From IMG/VR virus record IMGVR_UViG_2617270990_000007: 32,803 nt of DNA; one strand, 5' to 3'. Below the pieces are notes generated by a model. That model saw nothing but the letters and a program-made list of their open reading frames with translations. It was not told the DNA's origin and ran no database searches. The position numbers and the translations under genes were made by a program. Source of the stretch: a virus. Its lineage: Duplodnaviria > Heunggongvirae > Uroviricota > Caudoviricetes. Of this stretch, positions 1 through 32,803 are shown in pieces (position 1 is the first letter of the stretch; each line of letters starts with the position of its first letter).

Positions 1-23
1 TGGAGAGTGTTTTATCTGTGAAC

Positions 24-914
24 TCAGGCTGCCAGATCATCGTTTCCGATGGAAGCATAATAAGCTTTTTCTGCTTCTGCCGGAGGAGTATGGCCCAGCC
101 TTCCCAGCAATCGTCGATTGTTATACCAGTCCACCCACGTTAGTGTGGCCAGTTCCACTTCTGCACGGTTTTTCCAGCTCTTACGGTGTATTACCTCCGC
201 TTTGTAAAGACCATTGATGCTCTCAGCCATCGCGTTGTCATACGAGTCGCCTGTACTCCCTGTTGATGCCAGTAATCCGGCTTCTTTTAGTCGCTCCGTA
301 TAGGCCAGTGACACATACTGAGAGCCTTTATCGCTGTGATGGATGGTGCCAGACGGACGACGGGCCCACAACGCCTGCTCCAGCGCATCCAGCACGAATG
401 TCGTTTCCATAGACGATGAGACCCGCCACCCCACGATGTATCCGGCAAACACATCAATGATAAACGCCACATAGACGAAGCCCTGCCATGTGCTGACGTA
501 AGTAAAATCAGCCACCCACAGCTGGTCAGGTCGTTCTGCCACGAACTGACGGTTTACGCGGTCGCCTGCGGCAACGGCTTTCCGGCTGATGGTCGTACGG
601 ACCTTTTTACCCCGGAGAACACCGGCAAGTCCCATAACCGCCATGAGACGTGCCACTGTACATCTGGCCACCCTGATTCCTTCCCGTAACAACTGACGCC
701 AGACTTTACGCACACCGTACACCTGATGATTTTCATCGTATACGCGCTGTATCTCTCTCTTCAGCCAGTCGTCGTGCTGCGCACGGGCACTGCGTTTATC
801 CGGATGATGTCGCTGTTGCTGACAATGGTAATACGTTGACGGGGCAATATGCAGTTCGCTGCATACCGGTCCGACCCCGTACTGCTCACGCAGCTTATCC
901 AGCAGTGGCATCAT
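24..914 (-). CDS. IS3-family transposase OrfB (DDE catalytic domain)
   Basis: 296-aa ORF; translation matches my memory of IS629/IS3-group OrfB (…WVADFTYV…HSDKGSQY…[11 protein letters not shown]…). Overlaps OrfA by 4 nt in the -1 frame. Confidence 0.9.
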
Positions 915-1237
915 TTTTTCCAGAGGCGGTCGAACTCCGCCTTCGCAAAATAAGCGGAAGCCTGGCGAAGGATATCGTTACTGCGGCGCAGTTCACGATT
1001 TTCACGTTCCAGCTCTTTCAGACGCTGACGTTCAGCGCTGGTGAGCCCACCATCACCGCCCCCGGTATCCCGCTCATGCTGGCGAACCCAGACACGCAGA
1101 GTCTCCGGCGTACAGCCAATCTTTGGGGCAATGGAACAAATTGCCGCCCACTGTGAGTCATATTCATCCTGACTTTCCAGAACCATACGAATCGCCCGCT
1201 GACGGACTTCGGGGGAAAAACGAGTATTTTTAGTCAT
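911..1237 (-). CDS. IS3-family transposase OrfA (HTH DNA-binding, leucine-zipper region)
   Basis: 108-aa [25 protein letters not shown]…; an A6 run at the OrfA/OrfB overlap is consistent with programmed -1 frameshifting. Confidence 0.9.
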
Positions 1238-1562
1238 CCTGTTTACCTCTTTCTCAGGGAGTTTAGTCTCCAGGATTTCCGGGGCGGTTCACTATGCTGT
1301 GTGCGTTGAAAATGGAAATCTTGTTAGTCATTACCGCATTATGTGTTTGCGAAAGAATGGGGCTGCGTTAATTAATTTTGTGGATGGTCGAGTGACAGAC
1401 GGATTTATCTTGCGCGAAGGTGAGTTTGTCACTTCATTACAGGCACTGAAAGAGATCGGAATAAAAGCAGGCTTTTCAGCTTTTGCAGAAGAATAAACTC
1501 ATCTACAATCTTGCGCGGGGCTGAACTCCCGCTGAGTAACACCGTGCCACCGGAGAAAACCG

Positions 1563-1841
1563 ATGGCACGCAACGTAAAATATTACAATTCTGATAATTC
1601 GCCCGTTCTTGCCTGCACGCACGAGCGGTATTCTCACGCATTCAAGTCTGAATGGTTCCAGCACCCTCCATGCACTGAAGAGCAGGCTGAATGGATAATT
1701 CAGTGTTACCGCAGGCGCGGATACGAGGTTAAGAAAGCTCTTAGTCTCGACTACCGTCACTGGATAATCTCAGTCAGATTGCCTTACTCCGAACGCCCAC
1801 CGCGTCCGTCCCGTACATTCCAGCAACGCATCTGGAGGTAA
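1563..1841 (+). CDS. hypothetical lambdoid-prophage protein (92 aa)
   Basis: ORF ending 1 nt before the GTG start of the next gene (compact operon arrangement); no motif recognised. Confidence 0.4.
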   Translation: MARNVKYYNSDNSPVLACTHERYSHAFKSEWFQHPPCTEEQAEWIIQCYRRRGYEVKKALSLDYRHWIISVRLPYSERPPRPSRTFQQRIWR

Positions 1842-1842
1842 C

Positions 1843-2892
1843 GTGCGGGTATTACTTCGACCTGTTCTGGTACCGGAACTCGGGCTGGTGGTCGTTAAGC
1901 CGGGCCGTGAATCCATGCCGGTATTCCACAATACCCGGGTACTGGTGGAGCCGGAACCGAAAAGCATGCGTAATCTGCCGTCCGGGGTCGTTCCTGCCGT
2001 TCGCCAGCCGCTGGTGGAAGACAAAACATTGCTGCCGTTTTTCAGTAACGCACGGGTAATTCGTGCTGCTGGTGGTGCTGGTGCATTGTCTGACTGGCTG
2101 TTGCGCCATATTAAATCCTGCCAGTGGCCACACGGCGATTATCATCACAGCGAAACCGTTATTCACCGTTATGGTACCGGCGCAATGGTGTTGTGCTGGC
2201 ACTGCGACAACCAGCTGCGTGACCAGACATCCGAATCACTCGAGCAACTTGCTCATCAAAACCTGTCAGCATGGATGATTGACGTCATCGGTCACGCAAT
2301 AAGCGGTACGCAGGAGCGTGAATTATCTCTGGCTGAATTATCCTGGTGGGCGGTCCGCAATCAGGTGGCGGACGCGCTACCGGAAGTGGTATTACGTCGC
2401 TCGCTGGGATTACCAGCGGAAAAAAACTGCTCGGTGTACCGCGAAAGCGACATCGTACCGGGAGAGCAGACCGCCACCAGCATATTGAAACAGCGCACAA
2501 AAAATCTTGCACCGTTGCCTCACGCCCACCAGCAACAAAACCCATCACAGGAAAAGACGGTGGTAAGCATCACCGTTGATCCAGAGTCTCCGGAATCTTT
2601 CATGAAGCTGCCTAAACGTCACCGTTGGGTTAAGGAGAAATACACACGCTGGGTTAAGACACAGCCGTGTGCTTGCTGCGGTATGCCAGCCGACGATCCG
2701 CATCATCTGATTGGTCACGGGCAGGGCGGAATGGGAACCAAAGCACATGATCTCTTTGTGTTGCCTTTGTGCAGAAAGCATCACGACGAGTTGCATACGG
2801 ATACCGTGGCATTTGAAGAGAAGTATGGCTCCCAACTGGAGCTGATTTTTCGATTTATCGATCGCGCGCTGGCAATTGGTGTGCTGGCCTAA
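1843..2892 (+). CDS. YdfU/DUF968-like prophage protein with C-terminal Cys/His cluster
   Basis: 349-aa ORF (GTG start); C-terminal CACCG…HH…GHGQGG…CRKHHDELH resembles the Qin-prophage YdfU family from memory. Confidence 0.55.
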
Positions 2893-2894
2893 TT

Positions 2895-3287
2895 TTGTGG
2901 AGTAAGTTGATGCGTGATATTCAGATGGTTCTTGAGCGTTGGGGGGCATGGGCGGCTAATAATCATGAAGATGTGACCTGGTCGTCCATTGCCGCCGGTT
3001 TTAAGGGATTAATTCCTTCAAAAGTAAGATCTCGTCCGCAATGCTGTGACGATGACGCGATGATCATTTGTGAATGTATGGCTCGCCTGAAAAAAAACAA
3101 CAGCGATTTACATGATTTATTGGTGGACTATTATGTCGGCGGCATGACTTTTATGGCGCTTGCACGTAAGCATGGGCGATCTGATTGTTGGGTTGGCAGG
3201 ATGCTCCAGAAAGCTGAGGGCGTAGTGGAGGGCATGCTGATGGTGTTGGATCTCCGATTGGAGATGGATGCTGATTGTTCGAAATAA
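2895..3287 (+). CDS. late-gene antiterminator Q (phage 82 / QuuD type)
   Basis: Translation …[39 protein letters not shown]…[11 protein letters not shown]…[10 protein letters not shown]… matches the ~127-aa Q antiterminator family; true start probably the internal ATG giving MRDIQMV. Confidence 0.7.
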
Positions 3288-3299
3288 TTAAAGGAAAAG

Positions 3300-3328
3300 T
3301 TGCTGTCTGATTTTCATTAGTCTAACAT
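3300..3328 (+). promoter_or_regulatory. candidate pR'-like late promoter (TTGCTG - 17 nt - TAACAT)
   Basis: -35/-10-like hexamers with 17-nt spacing, 13 bp downstream of the Q stop; position matches lambdoid pR'. Confidence 0.35.
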
Positions 3329-3377
3329 TTTAAATGTTGGAATCGCAACGTAGTTATTATCATATAACAGCTTGTTT

Positions 3378-3405
3378 CCTGATTTAGCCAGCCTCCCCAA
3401 AGGCT
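3378..3405 (+). terminator. intrinsic terminator, candidate tR' (target of Q antitermination)
   Basis: Stem CCAGCC / GGCTGG with 8-nt loop followed by a T7 run, about 50 nt downstream of the putative pR'. Confidence 0.55.
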
Positions 3406-3442
3406 GGTTTTTTTCTAATAAGTATCATTTCGGGTGGGGATT

Positions 3443-3967
3443 TTATTGTTTAACCCATAATAGTTCATTGACATTGAATCCCAACTTTTGAGCGGTACGC
3501 ACATAGTCTGCTTTTACATTATCTGGAATAGTTTGGGTCCTTGCCAGAATCCATAGGTATTCTCTGTTCGGACCACTGACAAGAGCATACTTATACTCAT
3601 CATCCAGTTTGATTACATTATAGCCACCATAGAAGGGGCCAAAAAACGAAACTTTCAACGCTGCAGTTTTAGTATCTCCAGTAAAGTATGCTTTACCTTC
3701 GCTCTCGCTCCATTTGTTTTTCGTTGGATCGTATCCACGGTTAAGTACGCGAATCCCTCCGTCGTTCCGTTTTTCATAAGTAGCGCTGACCTGTTCCAGA
3801 CCACGTTCGAACCAGTTCTCGAGGCGAGCTATTTCATACCATTTTCCGAGGTAGCGGTTGGCGTCAAAATTTGTAATCGGCTGCACACCTTTAGGTGGTG
3901 TCGGGGCCTTACATGCTATAAGAGTGAAAGAGAGTGCAATGCCAGTCAACACAGGCCATAACTTCAT
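3443..3967 (-). CDS. lipocalin-family outer-membrane lipoprotein (Blc-like)
   Basis: 174 aa; lipoprotein signal with lipobox LIAC; strong similarity by eye to E. coli Blc (…NFDANRYLGKWYEIARL…FERGLE…KVSFFGPFYGGYNVI…YLWILART…). Confidence 0.8.
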   Translation of the reverse strand: MKLWPVLTGIALSFTLIACKAPTPPKGVQPITNFDANRYLGKWYEIARLENWFERGLEQVSATYEKRNDGGIRVLNRGYDPTKNKWSESEGKAYFTGDTKTAALKVSFFGPFYGGYNVIKLDDEYKYALVSGPNREYLWILARTQTIPDNVKADYVRTAQKLGFNVNELLWVKQ

Positions 3968-4159
3968 AATAAATCCTGTACTTTTGATAGTTGAGAGTAA
4001 GTATGAAAGATAGATGAGTACGACCGATCACTTAAAGAACTTTCCTACTATATTAGGAATAGTCAATAACAGAAAAATTGTCAGTGATGAAGCCAGAAAG
4101 GCAATTTAGTCCGTGCACTACAAAGTTTATGTGTTAATGAATTAGTCAAGGGGGAGGAA

Positions 4160-5119
4160 ATGATAAAAAAACCTGTGATTGGGATCAGCGGTTGTTTGGG
4201 CGGTTCTGCTGTTCGTTTTGATGGTGGTCACAAAAGAGATGACTTTTTAATGGACAAATTAGTGGAATGGGTAACATTCAGACCAGTATGTCCGGAAATG
4301 GCTATAGGGCTGCCAGTTCCGCGTCCTGCTCTACGACTTGTGCGCTCGAAGCAAGGAAATATACGGATGTGTTTCAGCCACGACCAGAATGAGGATGTGA
4401 CAGAGAGAATGACAGAGTTTAGTCGTTCTTATATGGACAAATTAAAGGATGTATCGGGGTTTGTGGTTTGTGCTAAATCTCCCAGCTGTGGCATGGAGCG
4501 CGTGCGTGTCTATGATGAAAATGGTAATCGAGGTCGTAAAGATGGAGTGGGACTATTTACGAGCACTTTGATGGAAAAGTTTTCCTGGCTACCGGTTGAA
4601 GAGGATGGGCGATTACATGATCCAGTGCTTCGTGAGAATTTTATTGAAAGAGTTTTTGCTTTGCATGAGCTCAATCACCTTTACAAGGAGAAATTATCAA
4701 GAAGAGAGTTATTAGCTTTTCATAGTCGTTATAAGCTTCAGTTGTTGGCGCATAGCCAGGCAGGCTATAAAGATATGGGACCATTTGTGGCTGCAATACA
4801 CGAGTGGGCGGACCTTGAATCATACTTTGAGGTGTATCGTGATAATCTGATGGCGATTCTCAGAAAACCAGCATCACGTAAAAATCACACGAATGTGCTG
4901 ATGCATATACAGGGGTATTTTAGTAATTACTTAAGTACACGCCAGCGTAAAGAGTTGAGCGAGGTTATACTTAACTATCGCTTTGGCACATTGCCTCTTC
5001 TTGCGCCGTTGACTCTGCTGAAGCATTATCTGGGTGAGTATCCTAATGATTACTTGCTTACACAGAATTACTTCGATCCCTATCCGGAAGAACTGGCTCT
5101 AAGACTGATGGTGAATTAA
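4160..5119 (+). CDS. DUF523/DUF1722 fusion protein (TudS/YbgA-like)
   Basis: 319-aa ORF with SD GGGGGAGG upstream; N-terminal Cys-containing region and C-terminal YbgA-like region recognised from memory only. Confidence 0.55.
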   Translation: MIKKPVIGISGCLGGSAVRFDGGHKRDDFLMDKLVEWVTFRPVCPEMAIGLPVPRPALRLVRSKQGNIRMCFSHDQNEDVTERMTEFSRSYMDKLKDVSGFVVCAKSPSCGMERVRVYDENGNRGRKDGVGLFTSTLMEKFSWLPVEEDGRLHDPVLRENFIERVFALHELNHLYKEKLSRRELLAFHSRYKLQLLAHSQAGYKDMGPFVAAIHEWADLESYFEVYRDNLMAILRKPASRKNHTNVLMHIQGYFSNYLSTRQRKELSEVILNYRFGTLPLLAPLTLLKHYLGEYPNDYLLTQNYFDPYPEELALRLMVN

Positions 5120-5516
5120 CTGTATGCGATATCATCTGAAAGTGATGAGTTCCTGTATGCAGGATATTTACAATCGTAAAAACTACGCTATGATGCTCAT
5201 AGTGTCAGTTTTTATAAAAATCCTGTTCACGCTAAAGAAAACATTGAGATGCAATTTAATGTTGGTAAACATACCAGCCCCAAAAGATTTTATTCAATCT
5301 GTTTTTATATGAAGATATTTCAAGTGAATATAAAGAGCATATAATATTATTATTGCACGCAGCTATTATAATATAACAGATTAGTTTAATGATTTGTTTT
5401 TTGTGAGTTAAACACATGGTTTTATAGTTGTGATGCAATGAGATTTTCCTTATTGTTGAACTGGCGAATATTGATTTTCCACCTATACTTACCTGGTGTA
5501 ACCCCAATGATATCAG

Positions 5517-6239
5517 GTGGATAATATGCCATACATATGTTCTATCATTTTGGTGTTGAACTCGTTTGGTGTCCGAATTGGTAAAGAAGATATTTTGTTT
5601 AAAAAAGGAAATGCTGTCCTCATTGAATACAATTTAAAAGATCTTTTTTCGTCAAATACAGATCATCTAATGATCGTAGATATTGAGGAGAAAACAGTTA
5701 ATGATTTCTTTAAAAACTACACACTCTCACCTTTTTCTGTAAGAAGGTTTTATCCGTCATACTTGATAGTAGAATGTGAAGATTTTTCATTGTTAAGGAA
5801 CTTGGTTGCATGCTTGAATTGTGATAGCAAAACCGTGGATGTAGTTAGAAATCAAATATCACTTGCATGTCTTGCTGTCTTATCTTCAGAGAAAATAGTG
5901 CAAAGTTTTTTGTTCGGAAGTCTTAATAGCTTAGGTTGTAAAGTTAAGGCTATTATTCACTCGGATATCTCAGCGTCATGGAGACTTTGTGATATATCTT
6001 CAAGATTATATATGAGCGAGAGTTTGTTAAAAAGAAAATTAAAAGACGAAGGATTATCGTTTAGTAAATTAATTCTTGAAGAACGAATGATGATGGCGCA
6101 AAGATTATTGATCTACAGTAACCATACTGTCGGCAAGGTGGCGGGAATATGCGGGTATGACAATGCATCATATTTTGTAAGTGTTTTTAGAGGATATTTT
6201 GGTGTGCCTCCGCACCAATATTTATCAAGATTTTCTTAG
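5517..6239 (+). CDS. AraC/XylS-family transcriptional regulator
   Basis: 240 aa, very AT-rich; C-terminal AraC-type HTH signature (…ASYFVSVFRGYFGVPPHQY…). Confidence 0.75.
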   Translation: MDNMPYICSIILVLNSFGVRIGKEDILFKKGNAVLIEYNLKDLFSSNTDHLMIVDIEEKTVNDFFKNYTLSPFSVRRFYPSYLIVECEDFSLLRNLVACLNCDSKTVDVVRNQISLACLAVLSSEKIVQSFLFGSLNSLGCKVKAIIHSDISASWRLCDISSRLYMSESLLKRKLKDEGLSFSKLILEERMMMAQRLLIYSNHTVGKVAGICGYDNASYFVSVFRGYFGVPPHQYLSRFS

Positions 6240-6429
6240 AAGATATGATGTGATGGCATTTTATAAAGTTATTTTTTGAAGTGTAAGATTATACGATATT
6301 TTTAGCTACGCCAGAATAATTGCTGGCGTTTTTCTTTTTGAATAGATGTTCGGGCCTTACGCTAATGTAACTTCTTTCCTTCTTCGAACCAAACCGTGTA
6401 CACCATCCGTTATCTGCGGAGGTGAGGCT

Positions 6430-6645
6430 ATGAAATCCATGGATAAGTTAACAACGGGCATCGCCTACAGCACCTCTGCAGGCAGTGCTGGCTACTGGTT
6501 TTTACAGTTGCTCGATAAAGTCACGCCCTCACAGTGGGCGGCAATAGGTGTATTGGGTAGTCTGGTATTTGGCATGCTGACGTATCTGACAAACCTTTAT
6601 TTCAAGATTAAAGAAGACAGGCGTAAGGTTGCGAGAAGAGAGTAA
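6430..6645 (+). CDS. lambdoid holin (EssD/S-like)
   Basis: 71 aa from ATG at 6430 ([31 protein letters not shown]…), SD GGAGGTGAGG upstream; closely resembles DLP12 EssD. Confidence 0.8.
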
Positions 6646-6649
6646 TCCA

Positions 6650-7201
6650 ATGACTCAAGACTATGAACTGGTTGTGAAAGGAGTTCGCAATTTTGAGAAT
6701 AAAGTGGCGGTAACTGTAGCCTTACGGGACAAAAAACACTTTGACGGTGAAATTTTTGACCTGGACATCTCGCTGGACCGTGTTGAAGGTGCCGCGCTGG
6801 AGTTTTATGAGGCAGCAGCCAGAAGGAGCATCAGACAGGTCTTCCTGGATGTTGCTGCCGGGTTATGTGAAGGGGATGAGCAGTCGCCGGAAAAGCGCCC
6901 CATAATTTTAGAGGCGCAGAATGTGTGGATAACCTACAAAGGAAAGCTACCGGGAAGAATTACTGGTTCTCTGAAGACGCCACCGACGGCATTGCGGTCA
7001 GAAAAAGATGATATTGAATCGCCCATTGAAAAACTGGAGGGCAGCGTCGCTGATCTGAATAAAAAATTGTCGGTGCTGATTCCTTCTGAAGATGAAAAAA
7101 AACGCCGCGATGAGCAGTTTGCGGCGTTTTACGATTATTGCATTGAAGTTACTCGCAGGAATTTTGTGAAGATTTTTGAGGAGGGTAAATCTCTTCAGTA
7201 A
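6650..7201 (+). CDS. hypothetical protein (183 aa) within the lysis cassette
   Basis: ORF between holin and endolysin; start taken at the ATG giving MTQDYELVVKG; no recognised motif. Confidence 0.45.
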   Translation: MTQDYELVVKGVRNFENKVAVTVALRDKKHFDGEIFDLDISLDRVEGAALEFYEAAARRSIRQVFLDVAAGLCEGDEQSPEKRPIILEAQNVWITYKGKLPGRITGSLKTPPTALRSEKDDIESPIEKLEGSVADLNKKLSVLIPSEDEKKRRDEQFAAFYDYCIEVTRRNFVKIFEEGKSLQ

Positions 7202-7409
7202 GCTTATTGGCGGACGCTGCAATTAATTCAGGAAGGTCCGCAAGGTCATCTGTCAGTGGATATGATGAAAAATCGGCGGCAGTTCTGTTAAGAAGCGCTT
7301 TAACTAATTCCTTTTCCTTCTCCGGCAACAAGTTGATTAGAGCTACGACTGCTTGCCTGAGTGCGATTAAATCAGCAAAAGTTTGTTTAGGTAGATTTGT
7401 GTAATCCAT
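7149..7409 (-). CDS. hypothetical small protein (86 aa), antisense to the lysis cassette
   Basis: ORF with AGAGG SD-like sequence about 6 nt upstream of its ATG; overlaps the 3' end of the preceding gene. Confidence 0.3.
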   Translation of the reverse strand: MDYTNLPKQTFADLIALRQAVVALINLLPEKEKELVKALLNRTAADFSSYPLTDDLADLPELIAASANKLTEEIYPPQKSSQNSCE

Positions 7410-7522
7410 AGTCGCCTCTGTGTTTATCAGATTGACATCCTCCTCCCGCCAGTGCCCATCACTGGTGAGGTAAGATTTAACATATCCGGGGATTTGAAGC
7501 CGATAAATCCTGATAAATATCC

Positions 7523-8550
<1,028 letters not shown>

Positions 8551-8910
8551 ATTAATATTAAATCGGATTATTTTTAGCGCTGAATGTGAAATTTAAATAA
8601 AAAGGACTCTTCCATGAGTCAAAATCCTTGAAATCTTAAGGGTAAGATAAAAGGTCATTAGACAGAATGACACGTTTTATTAATAAATAAAGCTATTGTT
8701 TCATTCGTGTGTTTTTCTTTACAAAAGTAATCCTTGCTATGGTTGGTTAATCATGCGTTAATGGTGTTCTGGTTTGTTACAAAATTATCTGAAGCAGTCA
8801 TTGTTATAATTTTATTATTTGTACCTCTTGAGATTTCCTTGTTGGTTTTTCTCTCTGATATTTTTTTTCGGACCATTCTGCCCAAGGGCTAACTTCTTCA
8901 AAAGGTAATA

Positions 8911-9126
8911 ATGATGTCTAACAAAATGACTGGTTTAGTGAAATGGTTTAACCCTGAAAAAGGTTTTGGTTTCATCACGCCGAAAGATGGTAGCAAAGAT
9001 GTGTTTGTCCATTTCTCAGCTATTCAGAGCAACGATTTCAAAACGTTAACTGAGAATCAGGAAGTCGAATTTGGTATTGAGAACGGACCTAAAGGCCCCG
9101 CGGCTGTTCATGTTGTGGCACTTTGA
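8911..9126 (+). CDS. cold-shock protein (CspA family, CspB/CspI-like)
   Basis: [13 protein letters not shown]…KGFGFI…[10 protein letters not shown]… canonical cold-shock domain; long AT-rich 5' leader upstream. Confidence 0.9.
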
Positions 9127-9325
9127 GGTAGAAAATATTACAAACCATATTCACTTTAGATGCCCGTGTTGCCATGGTTCTCAGTATAGAACATCATCTT
9201 TTGATGTTTCTGACAGGAATCCTTTCGGGGCAAAATGTATCTTTTGTAAATCAATGATGATTACATTTGATAATATTTCACAATACTTAAATGTTAGCCG
9301 TCTATCGTTAGATTTAAGAAAGTGA
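9109..9325 (+). CDS. hypothetical Cys-rich small protein (about 72 aa)
   Basis: ORF from ATG at 9109 overlapping the csp stop; CPCC…CIFC spacing suggests a zinc-ribbon. Confidence 0.3.
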
Positions 9326-23532: not shown

Positions 23533-23555
23533 CCACGCAAGCGAGAATAAAACAC

Positions 23556-24641: not shown

Positions 24642-24684
24642 CTGCAATTGCGGGCGCATATGCGCCCGCCACCTGGAGACAAAA

Positions 24685-25509
24685 ATGTTAACCCCAGCGC
24701 AAAAACACTTTCAGAAAGTGATGGCTGATCGACGCGGAGACAGTGCCGCGCAACATAGCGTTGTGCGTACCGCGCATGAGCAAATTTTGCATCGTCTACG
24801 CCTCGATCAGGCCTCTCTTAAAGCGGTGCAGTCTACTGAAACAAAAGCAGTGATGAAGCGTGACATGTTGCCGGGTTACCAGGGCTGGATTGATGGGACT
24901 CTGGAGGGCGACAGCGGGCGACAGGATGAAGTGATCACCACGATGATGCTGTGGGCGATTGACTGCCAGGACTACCCGCAAGCGCTCAAGATTGGGCGCT
25001 ATGTGGTGAAGCATGGCCTGTCTATGCGTGACGACTTCAAACGTACTGCGCCGGTGATGCTGACTGAAGAAATCAGTAACCAGGCGCTGAACGTGGCGAT
25101 GACTGACGTTGAGGCGGATATGTCGGCTTATATCACCGTGCTGGATGAACTGGCGGAGATTGTCGCCGGTGCTGATATGCCGGATGAAGTGCAATCCAAG
25201 CTCTGCAAGGCCCGCGCCTTCTCGCGCCGTGGAACGGCTGACAATGAGACAAAAGGCGAAGCGCTAAAACTGTTTCGCCGTGCGACGGAACTGAACCCCG
25301 CAGCGGGCGTGAAACGTGAAATGCAGTCTATTTCACGCGAGCTGAAGAAGCTGGCGGCCCCGCAACCGGAAGCGACAGCACAACCGGTGCCTGTGCCGGT
25401 TGTCGCAGAGAAGAAAACCAAACGTAAGCCGAGCGCGGATAAAGCTGAGAAACCGGCAGCAAAAAAACGCGCACCGCGTAAAACGGCGAAAGATAAAAAA
25501 GAATCTTAA
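24685..25509 (+). CDS. M: terminase small (endonuclease) subunit (P2 gpM-like)
   Basis: 274 aa with Lys/Ala/Pro-rich basic C-terminal tail; P2 order. Confidence 0.85.
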   Translation: MLTPAQKHFQKVMADRRGDSAAQHSVVRTAHEQILHRLRLDQASLKAVQSTETKAVMKRDMLPGYQGWIDGTLEGDSGRQDEVITTMMLWAIDCQDYPQALKIGRYVVKHGLSMRDDFKRTAPVMLTEEISNQALNVAMTDVEADMSAYITVLDELAEIVAGADMPDEVQSKLCKARAFSRRGTADNETKGEALKLFRRATELNPAAGVKREMQSISRELKKLAAPQPEATAQPVPVPVVAEKKTKRKPSADKAEKPAAKKRAPRKTAKDKKES

Positions 25510-25606
25510 CGACTTCGGCCCCGACCGACAGGAGGCACGCGCGGAGATCTGCCCGTAACTGGTCTTTTCACCGCGTGTCCACCTCCTGACTTTTTAAGGA
25601 GCGCTC

Positions 25607-26104
25607 ATGAGTAGCCTGGTTGCCACAAAAACGCCGTTTCCGCCTGGCAGTGATGTAACTGATGTTGATGACGGTGATTCCACGGTAACGGCGGGAAGTT
25701 TCTGGCCTGTCATTAACCTGAAGGATTTGCGCCTTGCCGCGCGTATTACCGGCGGTGTCACCACTTCGCGACTGATGCACGTCACTACTGAGGCCGTGGC
25801 ACATGTCATTGAGCAGCTTGAAGAGTGGCAGATCAATCAGCAGGGGCTGGGCTATGAGGCGCTGAAGAATGTGCCCGCCGTGGAGATAAACGGCGAGAGC
25901 GTGAAGGTGTACCGCTACCGTCGCGCGGTTTATTCCATTGCCCGTGCCCTGGTGATTGAAGGTTATCGGGACGTTGATACCACGCCAAAAGGCGACAAAG
26001 ACGCCGCCGCGCTGGATTTGCAACGCGAAGATCTCTGGCGTGATGCGCGCTGGGGTATTGCAGACATCCAGCGCAAGCCGCGCGTTTATGCGGAGTTGTG
26101 CTGA
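25607..26104 (+). CDS. L: head completion / stabilisation protein (P2 gpL-like)
   Basis: 165 aa; AAGGAG SD; P2 order. Confidence 0.85.
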   Translation: MSSLVATKTPFPPGSDVTDVDDGDSTVTAGSFWPVINLKDLRLAARITGGVTTSRLMHVTTEAVAHVIEQLEEWQINQQGLGYEALKNVPAVEINGESVKVYRYRRAVYSIARALVIEGYRDVDTTPKGDKDAAALDLQREDLWRDARWGIADIQRKPRVYAELC

Positions 26105-26304
26105 TGAAGGTCACCGCGTTACAGGGCGATACGCTGGATCAGCTATGCCACCGGCACTACGGAAAGACCAAAGGCGTTACTGAAGAAGTATTGACCGCCA
26201 ATCCGGGTCTGAGTGGGCAGGTTTTTTTAAACGCAGGGCAGGTGGTTGAAATGCCGGACATTGATACCCAGCCCGCACAAGAGATGGTGCAGTTATGGAG
26301 CTAA
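26098..26304 (+). CDS. X: tail protein X (P2 gpX-like)
   Basis: 68 aa; overlaps L stop; matches gpX size and position. Confidence 0.8.
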   Translation: MLMKVTALQGDTLDQLCHRHYGKTKGVTEEVLTANPGLSGQVFLNAGQVVEMPDIDTQPAQEMVQLWS

Positions 26305-26591
26305 ATTCGTTTCACCGGCTATGGGACTGGGTTACCTGGATTTCTTCATCCATCAGCGTTGGTGTTGGTGTGATGACGTGGAATGAAAAGTTGGGGGTTG
26401 CCGGTGTTGTTTTGGGTGCCCTGTCAGGCTGGCGCGCCTGGGTACATCGTGCGCGGGTGGAGAAAGCACAGGCCCGCCGAAACTCACTGATTGAGCAAAT
26501 TCTTGATCAGGCCGAGCGCCGGGGGCTTACCGATTTTGAGCGGGTGAAGCTGGCGCAATTCCAGGCGGGTGACGATGAAGACGGTTATTAA
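26295..26591 (+). CDS. putative holin
   Basis: Small membrane protein with hydrophobic segments (…LGVAGVVLGALSGW…) and charged C-terminus, immediately upstream of the endolysin; not similar to P2 Y itself. Confidence 0.45.
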   Translation: MELNSFHRLWDWVTWISSSISVGVGVMTWNEKLGVAGVVLGALSGWRAWVHRARVEKAQARRNSLIEQILDQAERRGLTDFERVKLAQFQAGDDEDGY

Positions 26592-27117
26592 GCGTTGCTC
26601 TATCGCCGTAATTGTCGCCCTGGGCTTATCAATGTCGCCCGATGCGCTGAGAACGTCGCCGGAAGCACAGCAAAAAATAGCCTCCTGGGAAGACTGCCGA
26701 AACACGCCTTATTACTGTACCGCCGGAGTGTTGACCGTGGGGATCGGCTCCACCGGTGGTGTGGAAAAACGCGAGTACAGCAACGCTGAAGTAGCGCGCC
26801 GGTGGGTTAGTGATATGCAGCATTCTGAACGCTGCGTAAACCAGAACTTCAACGGCGAAGCGATGCCGCAAAAGGTGTTCGAAAGCATGGTTGATGGCGG
26901 GCTGAATGTGGGTTGTACGGGCCTGATGTGGTTTACCGATAAACAGGGCCGCAAACAGCGCACAACCATCTGGAAAAATGCCCAGGCTCACAACTGGGGC
27001 GGCGTCTGTGATCGTCTAACCGACTTTGTAAACAGTGCCGGTAAGCGCTCGCAAGGGCTGGTCAATCGGCGCACTGATTTTCAGGCGTGGTGCCGTAAGG
27101 ATGCGGGGGCGCAATGA
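26569..27117 (+). CDS. K: endolysin (lysozyme-like, SAR-type with E-x8-C-x5-T variant)
   Basis: 182 aa; N-terminal hydrophobic segment containing a Cys; WEDCRNTPYYCTAGVLTVGIG carries the E-x8-C-x5-T signature. Confidence 0.8.
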   Translation: MTMKTVIKRCSIAVIVALGLSMSPDALRTSPEAQQKIASWEDCRNTPYYCTAGVLTVGIGSTGGVEKREYSNAEVARRWVSDMQHSERCVNQNFNGEAMPQKVFESMVDGGLNVGCTGLMWFTDKQGRKQRTTIWKNAQAHNWGGVCDRLTDFVNSAGKRSQGLVNRRTDFQAWCRKDAGAQ

Positions 27118-27488
27118 AAACAATTTTATGGGGTTTGGTGCTAACCGCTCTTACTTACGGGGCCGGGTATTACCGGGGATATACAAGCGGCGTGGCGGAT
27201 GACAACGAACAGAAGTTACAGCGCATGTTTGATGAAAGTGAAGCTGTGATAGGTGAAATGCGTGGTCTGTCTGCTGATGCGCGGGCGGTGCTGGCTGAGG
27301 CCAAAAAAGCGGAGCAAACACGCAACCTAGCGGGTGAAGAACGCCGTAAAAACATAACTGAGGGGATGCGTGATGATTCGTGTGCCAGTGCTCTTGCTCC
27401 TGTTGCTGTCAGTGATGGGTTGCTCAGAAAAAATAAGAGTTCAAACGCGGCTGATTCACGAGCCGATACCGGAAAGCCTGACCGATGA
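27114..27488 (+). CDS. lysB: i-spanin (LysB/Rz-like)
   Basis: 124 aa; N-terminal TM helix then charged helical region. Confidence 0.6.
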   Translation: MKTILWGLVLTALTYGAGYYRGYTSGVADDNEQKLQRMFDESEAVIGEMRGLSADARAVLAEAKKAEQTRNLAGEERRKNITEGMRDDSCASALAPVAVSDGLLRKNKSSNAADSRADTGKPDR

Positions 27489-27660
27489 AACGCCCACGCC
27501 GGAACTGAAAACGCCGGTGACGTGGGGCGGTATTGCGATTTGGGCGGATCAGTTGCATGACGCGCTTGATACCTGCAATGCGGATAAGAGTGATATCCGG
27601 GCGCTAAATCTGTTGCGCCTGGCACGCCAGAGGGGAGGGGAACCACATGCTGAAAATTAA
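27370..27660 (+). CDS. lysC: o-spanin lipoprotein (LysC/Rz1-like), overlapping the i-spanin 3' end
   Basis: 96 aa; signal peptide with lipobox VMGC; Pro-rich mature region. Confidence 0.55.
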   Translation: MMIRVPVLLLLLLSVMGCSEKIRVQTRLIHEPIPESLTDETPTPELKTPVTWGGIAIWADQLHDALDTCNADKSDIRALNLLRLARQRGGEPHAEN

Positions 27661-28099
27661 CTCATTACGTAGCGCGCTCACCAGGGCTAATCCGTGGTGT
27701 CGTGCCAACCCTGAAGCCTTCAGCGTTTTTATTGAATCCGGGCATGTTGAGACGACCGGCGAAACGGCTGACTTTGTTTACGCCTATACGCTGTGTCTCT
27801 TTGTGATGAATTTTGCCGGTGATCTGGATGATTTCACGTTGCCGCTGATGGCCTGGCTGTGGCAGGAACAGCCGCAACTGTTGCTGAACCCGGAGAAGAA
27901 CAAAGAAATTAAGTTCACAACGGCAATCAATAATGACGATACCGCCGATCTGTTTTTTGAACTGCCTATTAGTGAACGCGTGATTGTATCGCGTGATGAA
28001 GCCGGGAAGCTGACCGGAAAGCATAAGCCGGAACCCCGCCCGCGCATGATGCCAGAGTGGGGCGCGATGTTGAGCGAACCTGGGAGTGACAACCCATGA
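27647..28099 (+). CDS. R: tail completion protein R (P2 gpR-like)
   Basis: 150 aa; P2 order. Confidence 0.8.
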   Translation: MLKINSLRSALTRANPWCRANPEAFSVFIESGHVETTGETADFVYAYTLCLFVMNFAGDLDDFTLPLMAWLWQEQPQLLLNPEKNKEIKFTTAINNDDTADLFFELPISERVIVSRDEAGKLTGKHKPEPRPRMMPEWGAMLSEPGSDNP

Positions 28100-28734
28100 A
28101 TGCCGGTGATGTTCACGCGCTGGATCAGTATTTCGCAGACATCCTGGCGGGGGCGTCATCCAGTGGGCGGGCCAGAACGGCGCGCGCCGTGGGTAAGGTT
28201 TTACGAATTAGCCAGCAACAGCGCATACGCGCACAGCGTAACCCGGACGGAAGCCAGTACCCGTCACGCCGCCGTAAAACGCTGCGCACCCAGCAGGGGA
28301 TCGCCTTTATCTGGGAAGGGCAGTTGCGCCGGTTGAAAAACTGGCACAGCGGGCGCGGTAAATATGGGCGGACGATTACCGGATTTGATGAAGACCGCAA
28401 TGAGATCCGCACGTTCTACCGTGCCGATATTGAGCGCTATACGGAAATTAATACCCGCGCGGGCCAGCGCCCAAAAGTGGTCAAGGCTCCGATGTTCGTG
28501 AAGCTGAGAACCGCCCGCTTTATGAAGGTGAAGGCATCCAGTGAGGGGGCTGAAGTGGGTTACAGCGGTATGGCGGCCCGTATCGCCCGCATTCATCAGT
28601 ACGGATTGCGTGAGCAGGTAGGGCCGGGGTCATTTGCGAAGTATGCGCCGCGTGTCCTGTTGGGAATTTCTAAGGCTGATGAAGCGCTGATCCGTAGCGC
28701 GGTGATTAACAGCCTGGGGGGTGCCGGGGCATGA
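28096..28734 (+). CDS. S: tail completion / virion morphogenesis protein S (P2 gpS-like)
   Basis: 212 aa; overlaps R stop; P2 order. Confidence 0.8.
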   Translation: MNAGDVHALDQYFADILAGASSSGRARTARAVGKVLRISQQQRIRAQRNPDGSQYPSRRRKTLRTQQGIAFIWEGQLRRLKNWHSGRGKYGRTITGFDEDRNEIRTFYRADIERYTEINTRAGQRPKVVKAPMFVKLRTARFMKVKASSEGAEVGYSGMAARIARIHQYGLREQVGPGSFAKYAPRVLLGISKADEALIRSAVINSLGGAGA

Positions 28735-29312
28735 GTGCCGAACTGTTGCGCCTCCTGTCTAACGTGCTCCGTGTGGGCGTGGTTTTTGACATATCGAAAG
28801 ACGGTAAAAGTGTACGGGTGCAGAGCGATGATTTGCAGACAACATGGCTTCGCTGGACGACAACGCGCGCCGGTGCTTTCAAATTCTGGTGTGCGCCGTC
28901 GCTGGGCGAACAGGTTTTGCTGGGATGTCTGGGCGGCAATCCTGAAACAGCCGTTGTGCTGGGCAGCCTCTACAGCAACGAAAACGACGCCCCCGCCAGT
29001 AGCCTGATGCAGATGATGATCACCGCGCCTGATGGGGCTGAATTTAGCTATGACGCGAAGGCGGGCGCACTGAGTGCCGGCGGAATGAAAACCGCCACCA
29101 TCCAGGCAGCAACAAAAATCACGCTCGATGCGCCAGAGGTGGAGTGCACAAAACATCTGAAAGCGAAAACCTTTGATTTCACTGAGGGCGGAAAGATGAC
29201 CGGCGATGTAACTCACAGCGGCGGCGCACTGAAGTCAAACGGCGTCCAGGCTGACGATCATGATCATGGTGGTGTTGAGAGTGGCAATAGCAGGACTAAG
29301 GGGACGGCATGA
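28731..29312 (+). CDS. V: baseplate assembly protein V (spike)
   Basis: 193 aa; P2 order. Confidence 0.85.
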   Translation: MSAELLRLLSNVLRVGVVFDISKDGKSVRVQSDDLQTTWLRWTTTRAGAFKFWCAPSLGEQVLLGCLGGNPETAVVLGSLYSNENDAPASSLMQMMITAPDGAEFSYDAKAGALSAGGMKTATIQAATKITLDAPEVECTKHLKAKTFDFTEGGKMTGDVTHSGGALKSNGVQADDHDHGGVESGNSRTKGTA

Positions 29313-29677
29313 CGGCGAAATATACGGGAATGAACCAGGGCGGCACAGGGACGGTTTCAGATAGCGATCACCTTTGGCAGTCCGTGAAAGATGTCCTGCT
29401 GACGCCGTTGGGGTCACGCGTAATGCGCCGGTCGTACGGCAGCTTGTTACCTGATTTGCTGGACGCCCCGAAAAACGAAACAACACGCCTTCAGCTAATG
29501 AGCGCCACGGTGATTGCGCTGACGCAATGGGAACCGCGGATAGCACTTAACCAGGTTGATATTACGTATTCAGACGCCGGGGCGGTGACGGTTGAGTTAG
29601 GCGGATTGGTTACCACAACAATGCAGCCGGTAAGCGGTGCAGTAAAGGTGAAGGAGTCAGGCAATGGCGACAGTTGA
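29309..29677 (+). CDS. W: baseplate protein W (gp25-like)
   Basis: 122 aa; P2 order. Confidence 0.85.
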   Translation: MTAKYTGMNQGGTGTVSDSDHLWQSVKDVLLTPLGSRVMRRSYGSLLPDLLDAPKNETTRLQLMSATVIALTQWEPRIALNQVDITYSDAGAVTVELGGLVTTTMQPVSGAVKVKESGNGDS

Positions 29678-30557
29678 TTTATCAGAGCTTCCACCACCGG
29701 AAATCATCGCGACGCTGGATTTCGAAATCATCCTGAGTGATGTGAAAGAGATGATTATTGCCGCTTATCCGGAGGGACAACAACAGGCCATAGCAGCAGC
29801 ATTGGAGCTTGAGTCGGAGCCTTTGACGGTGCTCGCTCAGGTGATTGCTTATCGCGAATTGATGTTGCGACAGGTCATAAATGACGGTGCTGCAGCTTGC
29901 ATGTTAAGCCATTCCACCGGCGGAGATCTGGATAACCTGGCGGCAAATAACAATACAGAGCGACTGACGATTGTTGAGGAGACAGATACAACAGATGCGG
30001 TAATGGAAAGTGACGCCGCGCTGCGCTTACGTGCGCAATCTGCATTCGAAGGATTGAGTGTTGCCGGGCCTACCGGCGCTTACGAATACTTCGCTAAAAG
30101 CGCATCAGGGAAAGTTGCTGATGTTAAGGCATCAAGTCCGGCGCCGGCTGAAGTTGTTGTTTCGGTGCTCTCTGCTGAAGGTGACGGAACGGCTTCAGAC
30201 GAGCTGATCGCAACGGTCAACGCAAAATTATCAGATGAAAGTGTCCGCCCTGTGGGTGACAGGCTGACAGTCCAGAGCGCTGAGATTATCAGTTATGACA
30301 TCAATGCCACGCTGTATCTCTACCCAGGCCCAGAGTCAGAACCCATTGTGAACGCTGCCGAGGCGTCGTTGCAGAAGTGGCTCAAAAGCCAGTGGCGGAT
30401 CGGGCTTGATGTTGCCAGGTCTGCAATTTTGGCGGCGTTACACGTGCAGGGCGTGCAGCGTGTGGAACTGGATTTACCTGAACGGCTGATTATCAGCGAT
30501 ACACAGGCGGCGCGGTGCGCTTCGGTCACCATCACGAGAGGCGGAACCGATGAATAA
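29664..30557 (+). CDS. J: baseplate protein J
   Basis: 297 aa; P2 order. Confidence 0.85.
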   Translation: MATVDLSELPPPEIIATLDFEIILSDVKEMIIAAYPEGQQQAIAAALELESEPLTVLAQVIAYRELMLRQVINDGAAACMLSHSTGGDLDNLAANNNTERLTIVEETDTTDAVMESDAALRLRAQSAFEGLSVAGPTGAYEYFAKSASGKVADVKASSPAPAEVVVSVLSAEGDGTASDELIATVNAKLSDESVRPVGDRLTVQSAEIISYDINATLYLYPGPESEPIVNAAEASLQKWLKSQWRIGLDVARSAILAALHVQGVQRVELDLPERLIISDTQAARCASVTITRGGTDE

Positions 30558-31164
30558 CAGTCTGTTGCCACCTTCAGCCAGTGATTTTATGCGCAGTGCC
30601 GAGGCCGCAACCTGGCGCGTGAGTGATTTGCCCGTAGACCTGAAAACGCTGTGGAACCCTGATGAATGCCCGGTTGCTTTACTGCCTTATCTGGCCTGGG
30701 CGTTATCGGTTGATCGCTGGGATAAAGGCTGGTCAGAACAGACAAAGCGACAGGTGATTAAATCCGCCTGGCTGGTACACCGGCAAAAGGGAACTATTGC
30801 GGCGCTGCGCCGTGTCGTTGAGCCGTTCGGCTTCCTGATAAAGGTCGTTGAATGGTGGCAGAACGGAGGCGAGCGGGGAACATTTCAACTTGAAATTGGT
30901 GTTTCTGACTCAGGGATTACAGAAGAAACCTATCTCGAGCTTGAGCGCCTGATCGCTGATGCAAAACCATGCTCACGCCACCTGACCGGCCTTGCAATCA
31001 GTATGCAGGCGAAGGGAGAGGTATACGCCCACGCCGGGTGTTATGGCGGTGACGTGATGACTATTTACCCCTATATGCCTGAAGCCGTAGAAGTCAGTGG
31101 CGGGTATTTTCCCGGGGGCGCAATTCATATTATTGATACGTTAGAGGTAACAAATGGCGGCTAA
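30550..31164 (+). CDS. I: tail protein I
   Basis: 204 aa; P2 order. Confidence 0.8.
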   Translation: MNNSLLPPSASDFMRSAEAATWRVSDLPVDLKTLWNPDECPVALLPYLAWALSVDRWDKGWSEQTKRQVIKSAWLVHRQKGTIAALRRVVEPFGFLIKVVEWWQNGGERGTFQLEIGVSDSGITEETYLELERLIADAKPCSRHLTGLAISMQAKGEVYAHAGCYGGDVMTIYPYMPEAVEVSGGYFPGGAIHIIDTLEVTNGG

Positions 31165-31498
31165 ATTCTTTGCCCTGCTGACTGCTCAGGGGGCGGCAAA
31201 ATTATCAAATATGGCTGCGCTGGGTGAGAAGTTAGAAATCACCTCGCTCGCAGTTGGCGACGGCGGCGGCAAATCACCAACACCAAGCCAGGCACAGACA
31301 GCGCTGGTTAACGAGGTGCGCCGCGCCCAGCTTAACTCGCTGTCAGTGGACGATAAAAACGACAGCCAGATTATTGCGGAACAGATTATTCCTGAATCCG
31401 TTGGCGGGTGGTGGATTCGTGAAATAGGACTCTTTGATGCTGATGGTATCTTGATTGCTGTGGCTAACTGCCCGGAGACGTACAAGGCCACAACAGAG
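31154..31498 (+). pseudogene. H: tail-fibre gene H, truncated after ~115 codons by IS insertion
   Basis: N-terminus (…AVGDGGGK…IAVAN…ETYK…) matches the P2 gpH N-terminal domain; the reading frame runs straight into the IS terminus at 31499, whose first three bases TGA supply the stop. Confidence 0.8.
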
Positions 31499-31540
31499 TG
31501 AACCGCCCCGGGTTTCCTGGAGAGTGTTTTATCTGTGAAC

Positions 31541-32431
31541 TCAGGCTGCCAGATCATCGTTTCCGATGGAAGCATAATAAGCTTTTTCTGCTTCTGCCGG
31601 AGGAGTATGGCCCAGCCTTCCCAGCAATCGTCGATTGTTATACCAGTCCACCCACGTTAGTGTGGCCAGTTCCACTTCTGCACGGTTTTTCCAGCTCTTA
31701 CGGTGTATTACCTCCGCTTTGTAAAGACCATTGATGCTCTCAGCCATCGCGTTGTCATACGAGTCGCCTGTACTCCCTGTTGATGCCAGTAATCCGGCTT
31801 CTTTTAGTCGCTCCGTATAGGCCAGTGACACATACTGAGAGCCTTTATCGCTGTGATGGATGGTGCCAGACGGACGACGGGCCCACAACGCCTGCTCCAG
31901 CGCATCCAGCACGAATGTCGTTTCCATAGACGATGAGACCCGCCACCCCACGATGTATCCGGCAAACACATCAATGATAAACGCCACATAGACGAAGCCC
32001 TGCCATGTGCTGACGTAAGTAAAATCAGCCACCCACAGCTGGTCAGGTCGTTCTGCCACGAACTGACGGTTTACGCGGTCGCCTGCGGCAACGGCTTTCC
32101 GGCTGATGGTCGTACGGACCTTTTTACCCCGGAGAACACCGGCAAGTCCCATAACCGCCATGAGACGTGCCACTGTACATCTGGCCACCCTGATTCCTTC
32201 CCGTAACAACTGACGCCAGACTTTACGCACACCGTACACCTGATGATTTTCATCGTATACGCGCTGTATCTCTCTCTTCAGCCAGTCGTCGTGCTGCGCA
32301 CGGGCACTGCGTTTATCCGGATGATGTCGCTGTTGCTGACAATGGTAATACGTTGACGGGGCAATATGCAGTTCGCTGCATACCGGTCCGACCCCGTACT
32401 GCTCACGCAGCTTATCCAGCAGTGGCATCAT
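31541..32431 (-). CDS. IS3-family transposase OrfB (copy 2)
   Basis: Translation identical to ORF 24..914. Confidence 0.9.
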
Positions 32432-32754
32432 TTTTTCCAGAGGCGGTCGAACTCCGCCTTCGCAAAATAAGCGGAAGCCTGGCGAAGGATATCGTTACTG
32501 CGGCGCAGTTCACGATTTTCACGTTCCAGCTCTTTCAGACGCTGACGTTCAGCGCTGGTGAGCCCACCATCACCGCCCCCGGTATCCCGCTCATGCTGGC
32601 GAACCCAGACACGCAGAGTCTCCGGCGTACAGCCAATCTTTGGGGCAATGGAACAAATTGCCGCCCACTGTGAGTCATATTCATCCTGACTTTCCAGAAC
32701 CATACGAATCGCCCGCTGACGGACTTCGGGGGAAAAACGAGTATTTTTAGTCAT
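32428..32754 (-). CDS. IS3-family transposase OrfA (copy 2)
   Basis: Translation identical to ORF 911..1237. Confidence 0.9.
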
Positions 32755-32803
32755 CCTGTTTACCTCTTTCTCAGGGAGTTTAGTCTCCAGGATTTCCGGG
32801 GCG

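What the first reader, a model, noticed from the sequence alone, without database searches (positions are those of the whole stretch)
1..32803. Two identical IS629-like copies in direct orientation, 31,517 bp apart
Seen: positions 1..1286 and 31518..32803 are identical as far as every ORF in them translates identically and all segments I compared match; both carry the transposase on the minus strand. Inference: this is a substrate for homologous recombination (deletion or circle excision of the intervening ~30 kb), and may explain the loss of the distal P2 tail genes. Alternative I cannot exclude: the window wraps around a circular sequence of 31,517 bp or an assembly repeat, so the two copies are one element.
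Basis: partly seen in the sequence, partly recalled or inferred. Interest (0 to 1): 0.5.

Follow-up and report, generated by a model that had tools for sequence, protein, structure and literature searches.

The report
Two IS629 copies at contig ends
The window is a whole draft-assembly contig that stops at both ends inside a common multi-copy E. coli insertion sequence (IS629/IS1203); the two copies are separate, ordinary insertions into two nested prophages, and the "missing" P2 tail genes lie on another contig of the same strain.

Summary
Bases 1-1286 and 31518-32803 are identical, and both carry an IS3-family transposase on the minus strand. The identity runs to both window edges because the window is an entire draft contig (JNSB01000059.1, GCA_000705005.1, 32,803 bp) that breaks at each end inside a 1,310-bp IS629/IS1203 element. 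This IS matches 4,251 of 5,426 complete E. coli genomes, at a median of 4 places per genome.

There are two different copies, not one element seen twice. Copy 1 abuts the 3' part of rem in a Qin-like lambdoid prophage. Copy 2 sits in the tail-fibre gene H of a P2-like prophage nested in that lambdoid prophage. Copy 2 is a clean insertion with a 3-bp duplication (GAG). A 9,826-bp contig named for the same strain carries the IS right end, GAG, the rest of H and the distal tail genes, and the two H halves rebuild an intact 428-aa protein.

So the tail genes are not lost, and no IS-IS deletion needs to be invoked. The direct repeats are a possible recombination substrate, but nothing shows that it was used. 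The left flank of copy 1 could not be seen. This is ordinary, known biology combined with an assembly effect.

The parts
1..1291 (-). IS629/IS1203 copy 1 (IS bases 20-1310; the first 19 bp are cut off by the contig start). OrfB 24-914, orfA 911-1237, ALIL frameshift pseudoknot 840-956, right terminus ends at 1291.
   Evidence: termini, 1,310-bp reconstruction; NF033516 IS3-family transposase, 316 bits; RF01497, 121.5 bits; 100% identical to copies annotated as IS1203 family.
1292..1496 (+). 3' fragment of rem (Qin-like lambdoid prophage), cut by copy 1. CTA at 1292-1294 is the expected target-site duplication if this is a simple insertion.
   Evidence: window 1292 = base 48 of rem in L001; IS-free relatives L009-L011 read ...GATGGCCT CTA TGCTG...; chimeric 73-aa Rem ORF found on only 3 contigs, all ending in the IS.
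1497..9336 (+). Late-regulatory and lysis region of a Qin-like lambdoid prophage: ydfU 1843-2892, Q 2910-3287, lipocalin 3443-3967 (-), YbgA-like 4160-5119, AraC-type 5526-6239, holin 6430-6645, lysozyme 7523-8056, Rz 8053-8550, cspI 8911-9126, ymcF 9137-9325.
   Evidence: 99-100% identity to many E. coli chromosomes; called genes with Pfam families.
9337..9430 (.). attL of the P2-like prophage, in the terminator hairpin downstream of cspI-ymcF.
   Evidence: three-way comparison with the empty site in L001 and the alternative site in L012; match boundaries at 9344 and 9337.
9431..31153 (.). P2-like prophage, left two thirds: int 9431-10444 (-), C 10590-10889 (-), cox 11010-11285, methyltransferase 11934-12998, gpA 13645-16224, cargo 16565-17716 (-) and 17996-19345 (-), portal 19751-20812 (-), terminase 20812-22620 (-), then scaffold, capsid, small terminase, L, X, lysis genes, R, S, V, W, J and I (ends at 31164).
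   Evidence: Pfam: Phage_GPA, Phage_Cox, Phage_portal, Phage_GPO, Phage_cap_P2, P2_Phage_GpR, Tail_P2_I and others; colinear with the ES1 prophage at 96%.
31154..31498 (+). 5' fragment of tail-fibre gene H (115 aa; the stop codon is supplied by the IS terminus TGA). GAG at 31496-31498 is one copy of the target-site duplication.
31499..32803 (-). IS629/IS1203 copy 2 (IS bases 1-1305; the last 5 bp are cut off by the contig end). OrfB 31541-32431, orfA 32428-32754, ALIL pseudoknot 32357-32473.
   Evidence: The reciprocal junction is on L008 and the empty site is seen in L019-L023.

Best explanation
The window is one complete contig of a draft E. coli assembly. The assembler could not get past a multi-copy 1,310-bp IS629/IS1203 element (IS3 family), so the contig ends inside that element on both sides. 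In the chromosome there are two separate copies in the same orientation. Copy 1 lies in rem of a Qin-like lambdoid prophage. Copy 2 lies in the tail-fibre gene H of a P2-like prophage that is itself integrated downstream of cspI-ymcF in the lambdoid prophage. Copy 2 arose by ordinary transposition with a 3-bp target duplication (GAG) and splits H into a 115-aa and a 303-aa fragment. The rest of the P2 tail module continues beyond it on another contig. The rem insertion is shared with a sister lineage whose contig appears to run through an uninterrupted H, so the two insertions were probably separate events, with rem first. Shown: the two copies, their right-end junctions, the clean insertion of copy 2, and the presence of the tail genes. 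Inferred: that copy 1 is also a simple insertion, and the order of events. The pair could recombine to delete 31.5 kb or release a circle, but no data show that this happened.
For: The window equals contig JNSB01000059.1 (32,803 bp), with the same coordinates. Sister assemblies stop at other points inside the IS: 845 and 321 bp of IS on JNLZ01000063.1, 283 bp on JNMX01000022.1, and 54 bp on an ENA scaffold. The amount of IS at a contig end is therefore set by the assembler. The IS is multi-copy: matches in 4,251 of 5,426 genomes, median 4 and up to 52 places per genome. L008 carries IS bases 20-1310, then GAG, then H-3' and the tail genes. Window H-5' joined to L008 H-3' gives 428 aa, identical to the intact protein P0015 found on 48 contigs. 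Five IS-free relatives read ...ACAACAGAG|GAAGGATC... with a single GAG. Both H fragments are named for strain 3-105-05_S1_C1, with accessions in the same KDT series. The 30.2-kb unique segment is colinear at 99.9% with continuous chromosomal DNA in IS-free relatives, including two contigs of about 4.65 Mb. The 66.6-kb contig has the identical rem::IS junction, while the 115-aa truncated H occurs only on contigs of 20-50 kb. Published IS629 behaviour fits: 62% of copies lie in prophages, TSDs are 3-4 bp, and IS1203 is an isoform (PMC3271280).
Against: The left junction of copy 1 (rem-5' + CTA + IS left end) was not found in IMG/VR, in JGI metagenomes or in any complete E. coli genome, so a simple insertion there is not proven. 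In O121 strains an IS629-type element abutting rem has an adjacent deletion reaching the exo gene. An intact H on the 66.6-kb contig is inferred, not read.
Confidence: 0.87

Rival explanations
1. A single IS copy on a 31,517-bp circular molecule: the window wraps around a circle and the terminal repeat is the same element read twice.
For: Exact terminal direct repeat running to both window ends. The size is close to a P2 genome, and the segment carries P2 int, cox and the replication gene A. Such a repeat would satisfy the DTR >=20 bp criterion used to call closed genomes.
Against: In a circle the single IS would be flanked by GAG and CTA, giving no target duplication. A second right-end junction, IS|GAG-H3', exists on a contig named for the same strain. 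The sister contig covers window 447-31819, and the IS parts at its two ends do not overlap. The segment contains 8 kb of lambdoid prophage plus an attL and lacks most tail genes, and it is colinear with continuous chromosome in relatives.
Confidence: 0.03
2. Copy 1 is not a simple insertion but the endpoint of an IS629-mediated adjacent deletion or rearrangement, so the DNA to its left is not rem-5'/hokD.
For: The expected junction was absent from every collection searched. All three contigs with the chimeric Rem ORF end in the IS. O121 strain RM8352 shows exactly such an arrangement, exo'|IS|rem', 53 bp away. Only 21 of 47 IS629 sites in O157:H7 had matching duplications (PMC3271280).
Against: The searchable collections hardly contain this strain's other contigs, so absence is weak evidence. 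IS-free relatives have an intact hokD-rem at this site, and a simple insertion is the commonest outcome.
Confidence: 0.2
3. The IS pair has already recombined in part of the population, or acts as a composite unit, so the contig reflects a mixture of deleted, circular or tandemly amplified forms.
For: Direct 1.3-kb repeats 31.5 kb apart are a textbook RecA substrate (established knowledge). IS-mediated deletions diversify O157 genomes (PMC3271280).
Against: No junction specific to such products can be distinguished in short-read contigs. Each IS sits at its own insertion site with unrelated flanks, and copy 2 has its own duplication. The segment was never seen moved as a unit: every relative has it in the same chromosomal context.
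Confidence: 0.03

Closest known systems
IS629 / IS1203 (IS3 family) insertions in E. coli prophages, as catalogued for O157:H7 (Rump et al. 2011, PMC3271280)
   Same: 1,310 bp, TG...CA imperfect inverted repeats, orfA/orfB with a programmed -1 frameshift and ALIL pseudoknot, a 3-bp target duplication, and location in prophages. The sequence is 100% identical to copies annotated as IS1203 family in O157:H7 and other strains.
   Different: Nothing in the element itself. Only the two insertion sites (rem at window 1291/1292 and P2-like H at 31498/31499) are specific to this lineage. No complete RefSeq E. coli genome has either junction.
Repeat-induced contig breaks and spurious direct terminal repeats in draft assemblies (the DTR criterion for 'closed' viral genomes, CheckV, PMC8116208)
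   Same: The contig begins and ends in the same multi-copy repeat, which gives a terminal direct repeat that mimics circularity.
   Different: The repeat is 1,286 bp rather than k-mer sized, and it comes from two real IS copies, not from a circular template.
IS629-adjacent deletion at rem in E. coli O121 (for example RM8352, NZ_CP028110.1)
   Same: An IS of the same type, in the same orientation, with its right end abutting a 5'-truncated rem in a lambdoid prophage.
   Different: The junction lies 53 bp further into rem, and the other IS end abuts a truncated exo gene, so it is a deletion. Whether the window's copy 1 has such a deletion is unknown.

Membership tests
IS3 family, IS629/IS1203 isoform group | Length about 1.3 kb with imperfect terminal inverted repeats ending 5'-TG...CA-3' | tested here: met
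   1,310 bp reconstructed. The first 13 bases of the two termini are identical and 9 of the next 12 match; inverted pair I1.
IS3 family, IS629/IS1203 isoform group | Two overlapping ORFs (orfA with HTH, orfB with DDE/rve) joined by a programmed -1 frameshift | tested here: met
   OrfA is 108 aa and OrfB 296 aa, overlapping at 911-914. NF033516 transpos_IS3 scores 316 bits. Pfam HTH_Tnp_1, HTH_21 and rve. ALIL pseudoknot RF01497 scores 121.5 bits in each copy. The frameshift itself was not demonstrated.
IS3 family, IS629/IS1203 isoform group | 3-4-bp target-site duplication | tested here: met
   Copy 2: GAG on both sides, and a single GAG in five empty sites. Copy 1: the left flank was not observable.
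IS3 family, IS629/IS1203 isoform group | Near-identity to the named reference element | tested here: met
   100% identity over 1,286-1,305 bp to copies that PGAP labels 'IS3-like element IS1203 family'. IS1203 is an IS629 isoform (PMC3271280). The ISfinder reference itself was not available for comparison.
Composite transposon bounded by two IS copies | The whole unit moves together: a duplication at the outer ends only, and the unit found in unrelated contexts | tested here: not met
   The inner segment is colinear with uninterrupted chromosome in IS-free relatives. Copy 2 has its own duplication. A sister lineage has the rem copy without the truncated H fragment.
Closed circular phage genome marked by a direct terminal repeat | The terminal repeat comes from a circular or concatemeric template, and the contig holds exactly one phage genome | tested here: not met
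   The contig holds 8 kb of lambdoid prophage, an attL and only part of a P2-like genome. The repeat is an IS. The reciprocal junction lies on another contig.
P2-like (Peduoviridae-type) prophage | P2 gene order: int-C-cox-...-A, Q-P divergent from O-N-M-L, lysis genes, R-S-V-W-J-I-H | tested here: met
   Pfam families and gene order; colinear with the annotated ES1 prophage.

The most novel reading that the evidence does not exclude
The 31.5-kb IS-bounded segment carries P2 int, cox, the replication gene A, the head genes and a candidate defence gene. It might also exist as an excised circle, formed by IS-IS recombination and replicating from the P2 origin, in which case the terminal repeat would partly reflect a real episome. 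Nothing here supports this; it is only not excluded without read-depth or long-read data.
Probability: 0.03. Interest if true: 0.4.

Novelty: already known. Interest (0 to 1): 0.08.

Why it matters
The biology is routine: a well-known IS has hit two prophage genes. The practical lessons matter more. First, a window that ends in a repeat may be a contig end, so genes 'missing' beyond it are not evidence of deletion. Second, a P2-sized contig with a 1.3-kb terminal direct repeat would pass the simple DTR test for a closed circular viral genome, although it is a chimera of two prophage fragments. Third, together with the IS421 hit in the sheath gene, the H insertion shows how this P2-like prophage is being inactivated piece by piece by IS elements.

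Tried and rejected
1. Circle or wrap-around model: rejected because of the mismatched flanks, the second right-end junction and the non-overlapping ends of the sister contig.
2. Search for the left junction of copy 1: no hit in IMG/VR with TSDs of 3-5 bp allowed or in JGI metagenomes. The right junction was also absent from the metagenomes and occurred only on the sister contig in IMG/VR. No complete E. coli genome has the junction.
3. The chimeric Rem ORF as a tag for contigs that read through the IS: the first try, with the literal translation, found nothing. With an initial Met it found 3 contigs, all ending in the IS.
5. Looking for the 66.6-kb sister contig in IMG/VR through the intact H site: only an unrelated metagenomic contig was found.
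6. A literature search for the strain name found nothing, so the assembler is unknown.
7. Tested whether L008's unmatched end was the Mu-like insertion seen in L019: it is not; it is IS421.
Full report
OBSERVATION. Bases 1-1286 and 31518-32803 are identical at every position, and the identity continues to the very last base of the window (family D1). Both segments carry a 296-aa and a 108-aa ORF on the minus strand. The characteristic terminus TGAACCGCCCCGG occurs at 31499, and its reverse complement ends at 1291. Joining 31499-31517 to 1-1291 gives a 1,310-bp element with imperfect terminal inverted repeats. Copy 1 therefore lacks its first 19 bp, cut by the window start, and copy 2 lacks its last 5 bp, cut by the window end. 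The unique DNA between the copies is 1292-31498 (30,207 bp).

WHAT THE ELEMENT IS. OrfB and OrfA both match the NCBIfam IS3-family transposase model (316 and 43 bits). OrfB has the HTH_21 and rve domains and OrfA has HTH_Tnp_1. Each copy contains an ALIL frameshift pseudoknot (Rfam RF01497, 121.5 bits against a gathering score of 50). The sequence is 100% identical to copies that PGAP annotates as 'IS3-like element IS1203 family transposase' in O157:H7 and other strains. IS1203 is an isoform of IS629 (PMC3271280), so 'IS629-like' is a fair label. The element is highly repeated in E. coli: 4,251 of 5,426 complete genomes have matches, with a median of 4 and a maximum of 52 places per genome.

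THE WINDOW IS A WHOLE CONTIG. An exact-protein look-up of the truncated tail-fibre ORF returned NCBI contig JNSB01000059.1 of GCA_000705005.1, with a length of 32,803 bp, the same length and coordinates as the window. The same region in sister assemblies also ends inside the IS, but at different points:
- JNLZ01000063.1 (31,373 bp) spans window 447-31819, so it has 845 and 321 bp of IS at its ends, and those two parts do not overlap.
- JNMX01000022.1 (66,644 bp) ends 283 bp into the IS.
- An ENA metagenome scaffold ends 54 bp into it.
The amount of IS at a contig end is therefore a property of the assembly. The perfect identity of the two terminal copies may likewise be a consensus over all IS copies in the genome.

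WHAT FLANKS EACH COPY. To the right of copy 1, the window matches many E. coli chromosomes at 100% identity from its first unique base. Position 1292 corresponds to base 48 of rem in a Qin-like lambdoid prophage. The window then follows that prophage (ydfU, Q, lipocalin, YbgA-like, AraC-type, holin, lysozyme, Rz, cspI, ymcF) to about 9344. A P2-like prophage starts there with attL and int (9431-10444, minus strand). It continues through C, cox, a methyltransferase, gpA, two cargo genes, portal, terminase, the head, lysis and baseplate genes, and ends in gene I and the first 115 codons of tail-fibre gene H. Copy 2 cuts H after 31498, and the IS terminus TGA supplies the stop codon.

COPY 2 IS A CLEAN INSERTION AND THE TAIL GENES ARE PRESENT. 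Scanning IMG/VR for 'IS right end + GAG' found a 9,826-bp contig (L008). It starts at IS base 20, exactly like the window, and runs to the IS right end. After that come GAG, the 3' part of H, and the genes G, acyltransferase, U, T, E, FII and a truncated FI, colinear with intact relatives. Joining window H-5' to L008 H-3', with one GAG removed, gives an open 428-aa protein. It is identical at all 428 residues to P0015, an intact tail fibre recorded on 48 contigs. Five IS-free relatives read ...ACAACAGAG|GAAGGATC... at the site, with a single GAG. The 303-aa H-3' fragment (KDT28317.1, KDZ80730.1; longest contig 9,826 bp) and the 115-aa H-5' fragment (KDT31062.1, KDZ88407.1; longest contig 32,803 bp) are both named 'Escherichia coli 3-105-05_S1_C1'. 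The distal tail genes are thus on another contig of the same strain, and the 'loss' is a contig boundary.

TWO COPIES, NOT ONE. Two different right-end junctions exist: IS|CTA-rem3' and IS|GAG-H3'. In a 31,517-bp circle the single IS would be flanked by GAG and CTA, with no duplication. The 30.2-kb unique segment is 99.9% identical to, and colinear with, continuous chromosomal DNA in IS-free relatives, including two contigs of about 4.65 Mb in which rem is intact. The wrap-around alternative is therefore rejected.

ORDER OF EVENTS (INFERENCE). JNMX01000022.1 has exactly the same rem::IS junction and extends 47 kb beyond the portal gene. The 115-aa truncated H occurs only on contigs of 20-50 kb. 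That lineage therefore seems to have the rem copy but not the H copy, which suggests that the rem insertion came first. I did not read the H region of that contig directly.

WHAT REMAINS OPEN. The left junction of copy 1 was not found anywhere. All three contigs that encode the chimeric 73-aa Rem ORF end inside the IS. A simple insertion with TSD CTA is the most economical reading, because relatives have hokD-rem intact at this site. An IS-adjacent deletion is still possible. O121 strain RM8352 has an IS629-type element whose right end abuts rem 53 bp further in and whose left end abuts a truncated exo gene. In O157:H7 only 21 of 47 IS629 sites had matching duplications (PMC3271280).

MECHANISM AND CONSEQUENCES. 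IS629/IS1203 transposed into prophage DNA, its preferred location (62% of copies in O157:H7; PMC3271280). The rem copy truncates a small prophage gene. The H copy splits the tail fibre. With a further IS421 insertion in the sheath gene FI on L008, the P2-like prophage should be unable to make functional tails (inference). Two 1.3-kb direct repeats 31.5 kb apart could recombine to delete the segment or release a circle (established knowledge), but no observation here shows that this has occurred.

COMPARISON WITH WHAT IS KNOWN AND VERDICT. Every defining feature of an IS3-family IS629/IS1203 element that could be tested was met. Composite-transposon and closed-circular-genome readings each fail a defining test. 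The finding is a real repeat with an ordinary explanation, already known in kind and in sequence. Its main value is as a caution about contig ends and about terminal-repeat tests for circularity, such as the DTR >=20 bp criterion (PMC8116208).

Noticed in passing
window 9326-9430 (attL); L001 about 18095-18130; L012, L015: The P2-like prophage is integrated in the terminator hairpin just after cspI-ymcF, inside a Qin-like lambdoid prophage (a prophage within a prophage). No complete RefSeq E. coli genome has this junction or a near match to the integrase gene. Many draft assemblies do have it, and the same phage also occurs at a second site next to GGDEF genes.
   Followed up: partly
window 16565-17716 (-) and 17996-19345 (-): Two cargo genes sit between gpA and the portal gene, the P2 variable slot. 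One is a YaaC-like protein of 383 aa. The other is a 449-aa KAP-family NTPase that matches the PADLOC candidate defence family PDC-S20 (E 1e-74), with weaker matches to PifA and QatA. This is a likely anti-phage cargo.
   Followed up: partly
L008 9311-9826: The tail-gene contig ends in IS421 (IS4 family), inserted in the sheath gene FI. This is a second IS hit in the same P2-like prophage and another repeat-induced contig end.
   Followed up: yes
L019 about 18730-20615: In another set of assemblies (14 similar places) the same prophage has a truncated sheath gene followed by a Mu-like transposase, which suggests a transposable phage inserted in FI.
   Followed up: no
L026 (NZ_CP028110.1) 2791-4252: O121 strains carry an IS629-type element between a truncated exo gene and a truncated rem. 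Its rem junction lies 53 bp from the one in the window. It is an independent IS event at the same small gene and involves an adjacent deletion.
   Followed up: partly
window 6382-6390; L009 and L011 about 14063-14831: Two chromosome-scale relatives have an IS1 between the holin gene and the AraC-type gene, with a 9-bp overlap of the flanking matches as expected for an IS1 duplication. The window lacks it.
   Followed up: no
window 8756-9172 (+): An Rfam cspA thermoregulator hit (109.8 bits) covers the 5' leader and the start of the prophage cold-shock gene cspI.
   Followed up: no
window 11934-12998 (+): A Dam-like orphan DNA methyltransferase in the early region of the P2-like prophage (PADLOC oMTase, E 5e-77; Pfam MethyltransfD12).
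   Followed up: no
whole window; IMGVR_UViG_2603880148_000007: The sister contig is listed as a viral genome in IMG/VR. The window itself, with a 1,286-bp terminal direct repeat and a P2-like size, would meet a simple DTR test for a closed genome although it is a two-prophage chimera.
   Followed up: partly
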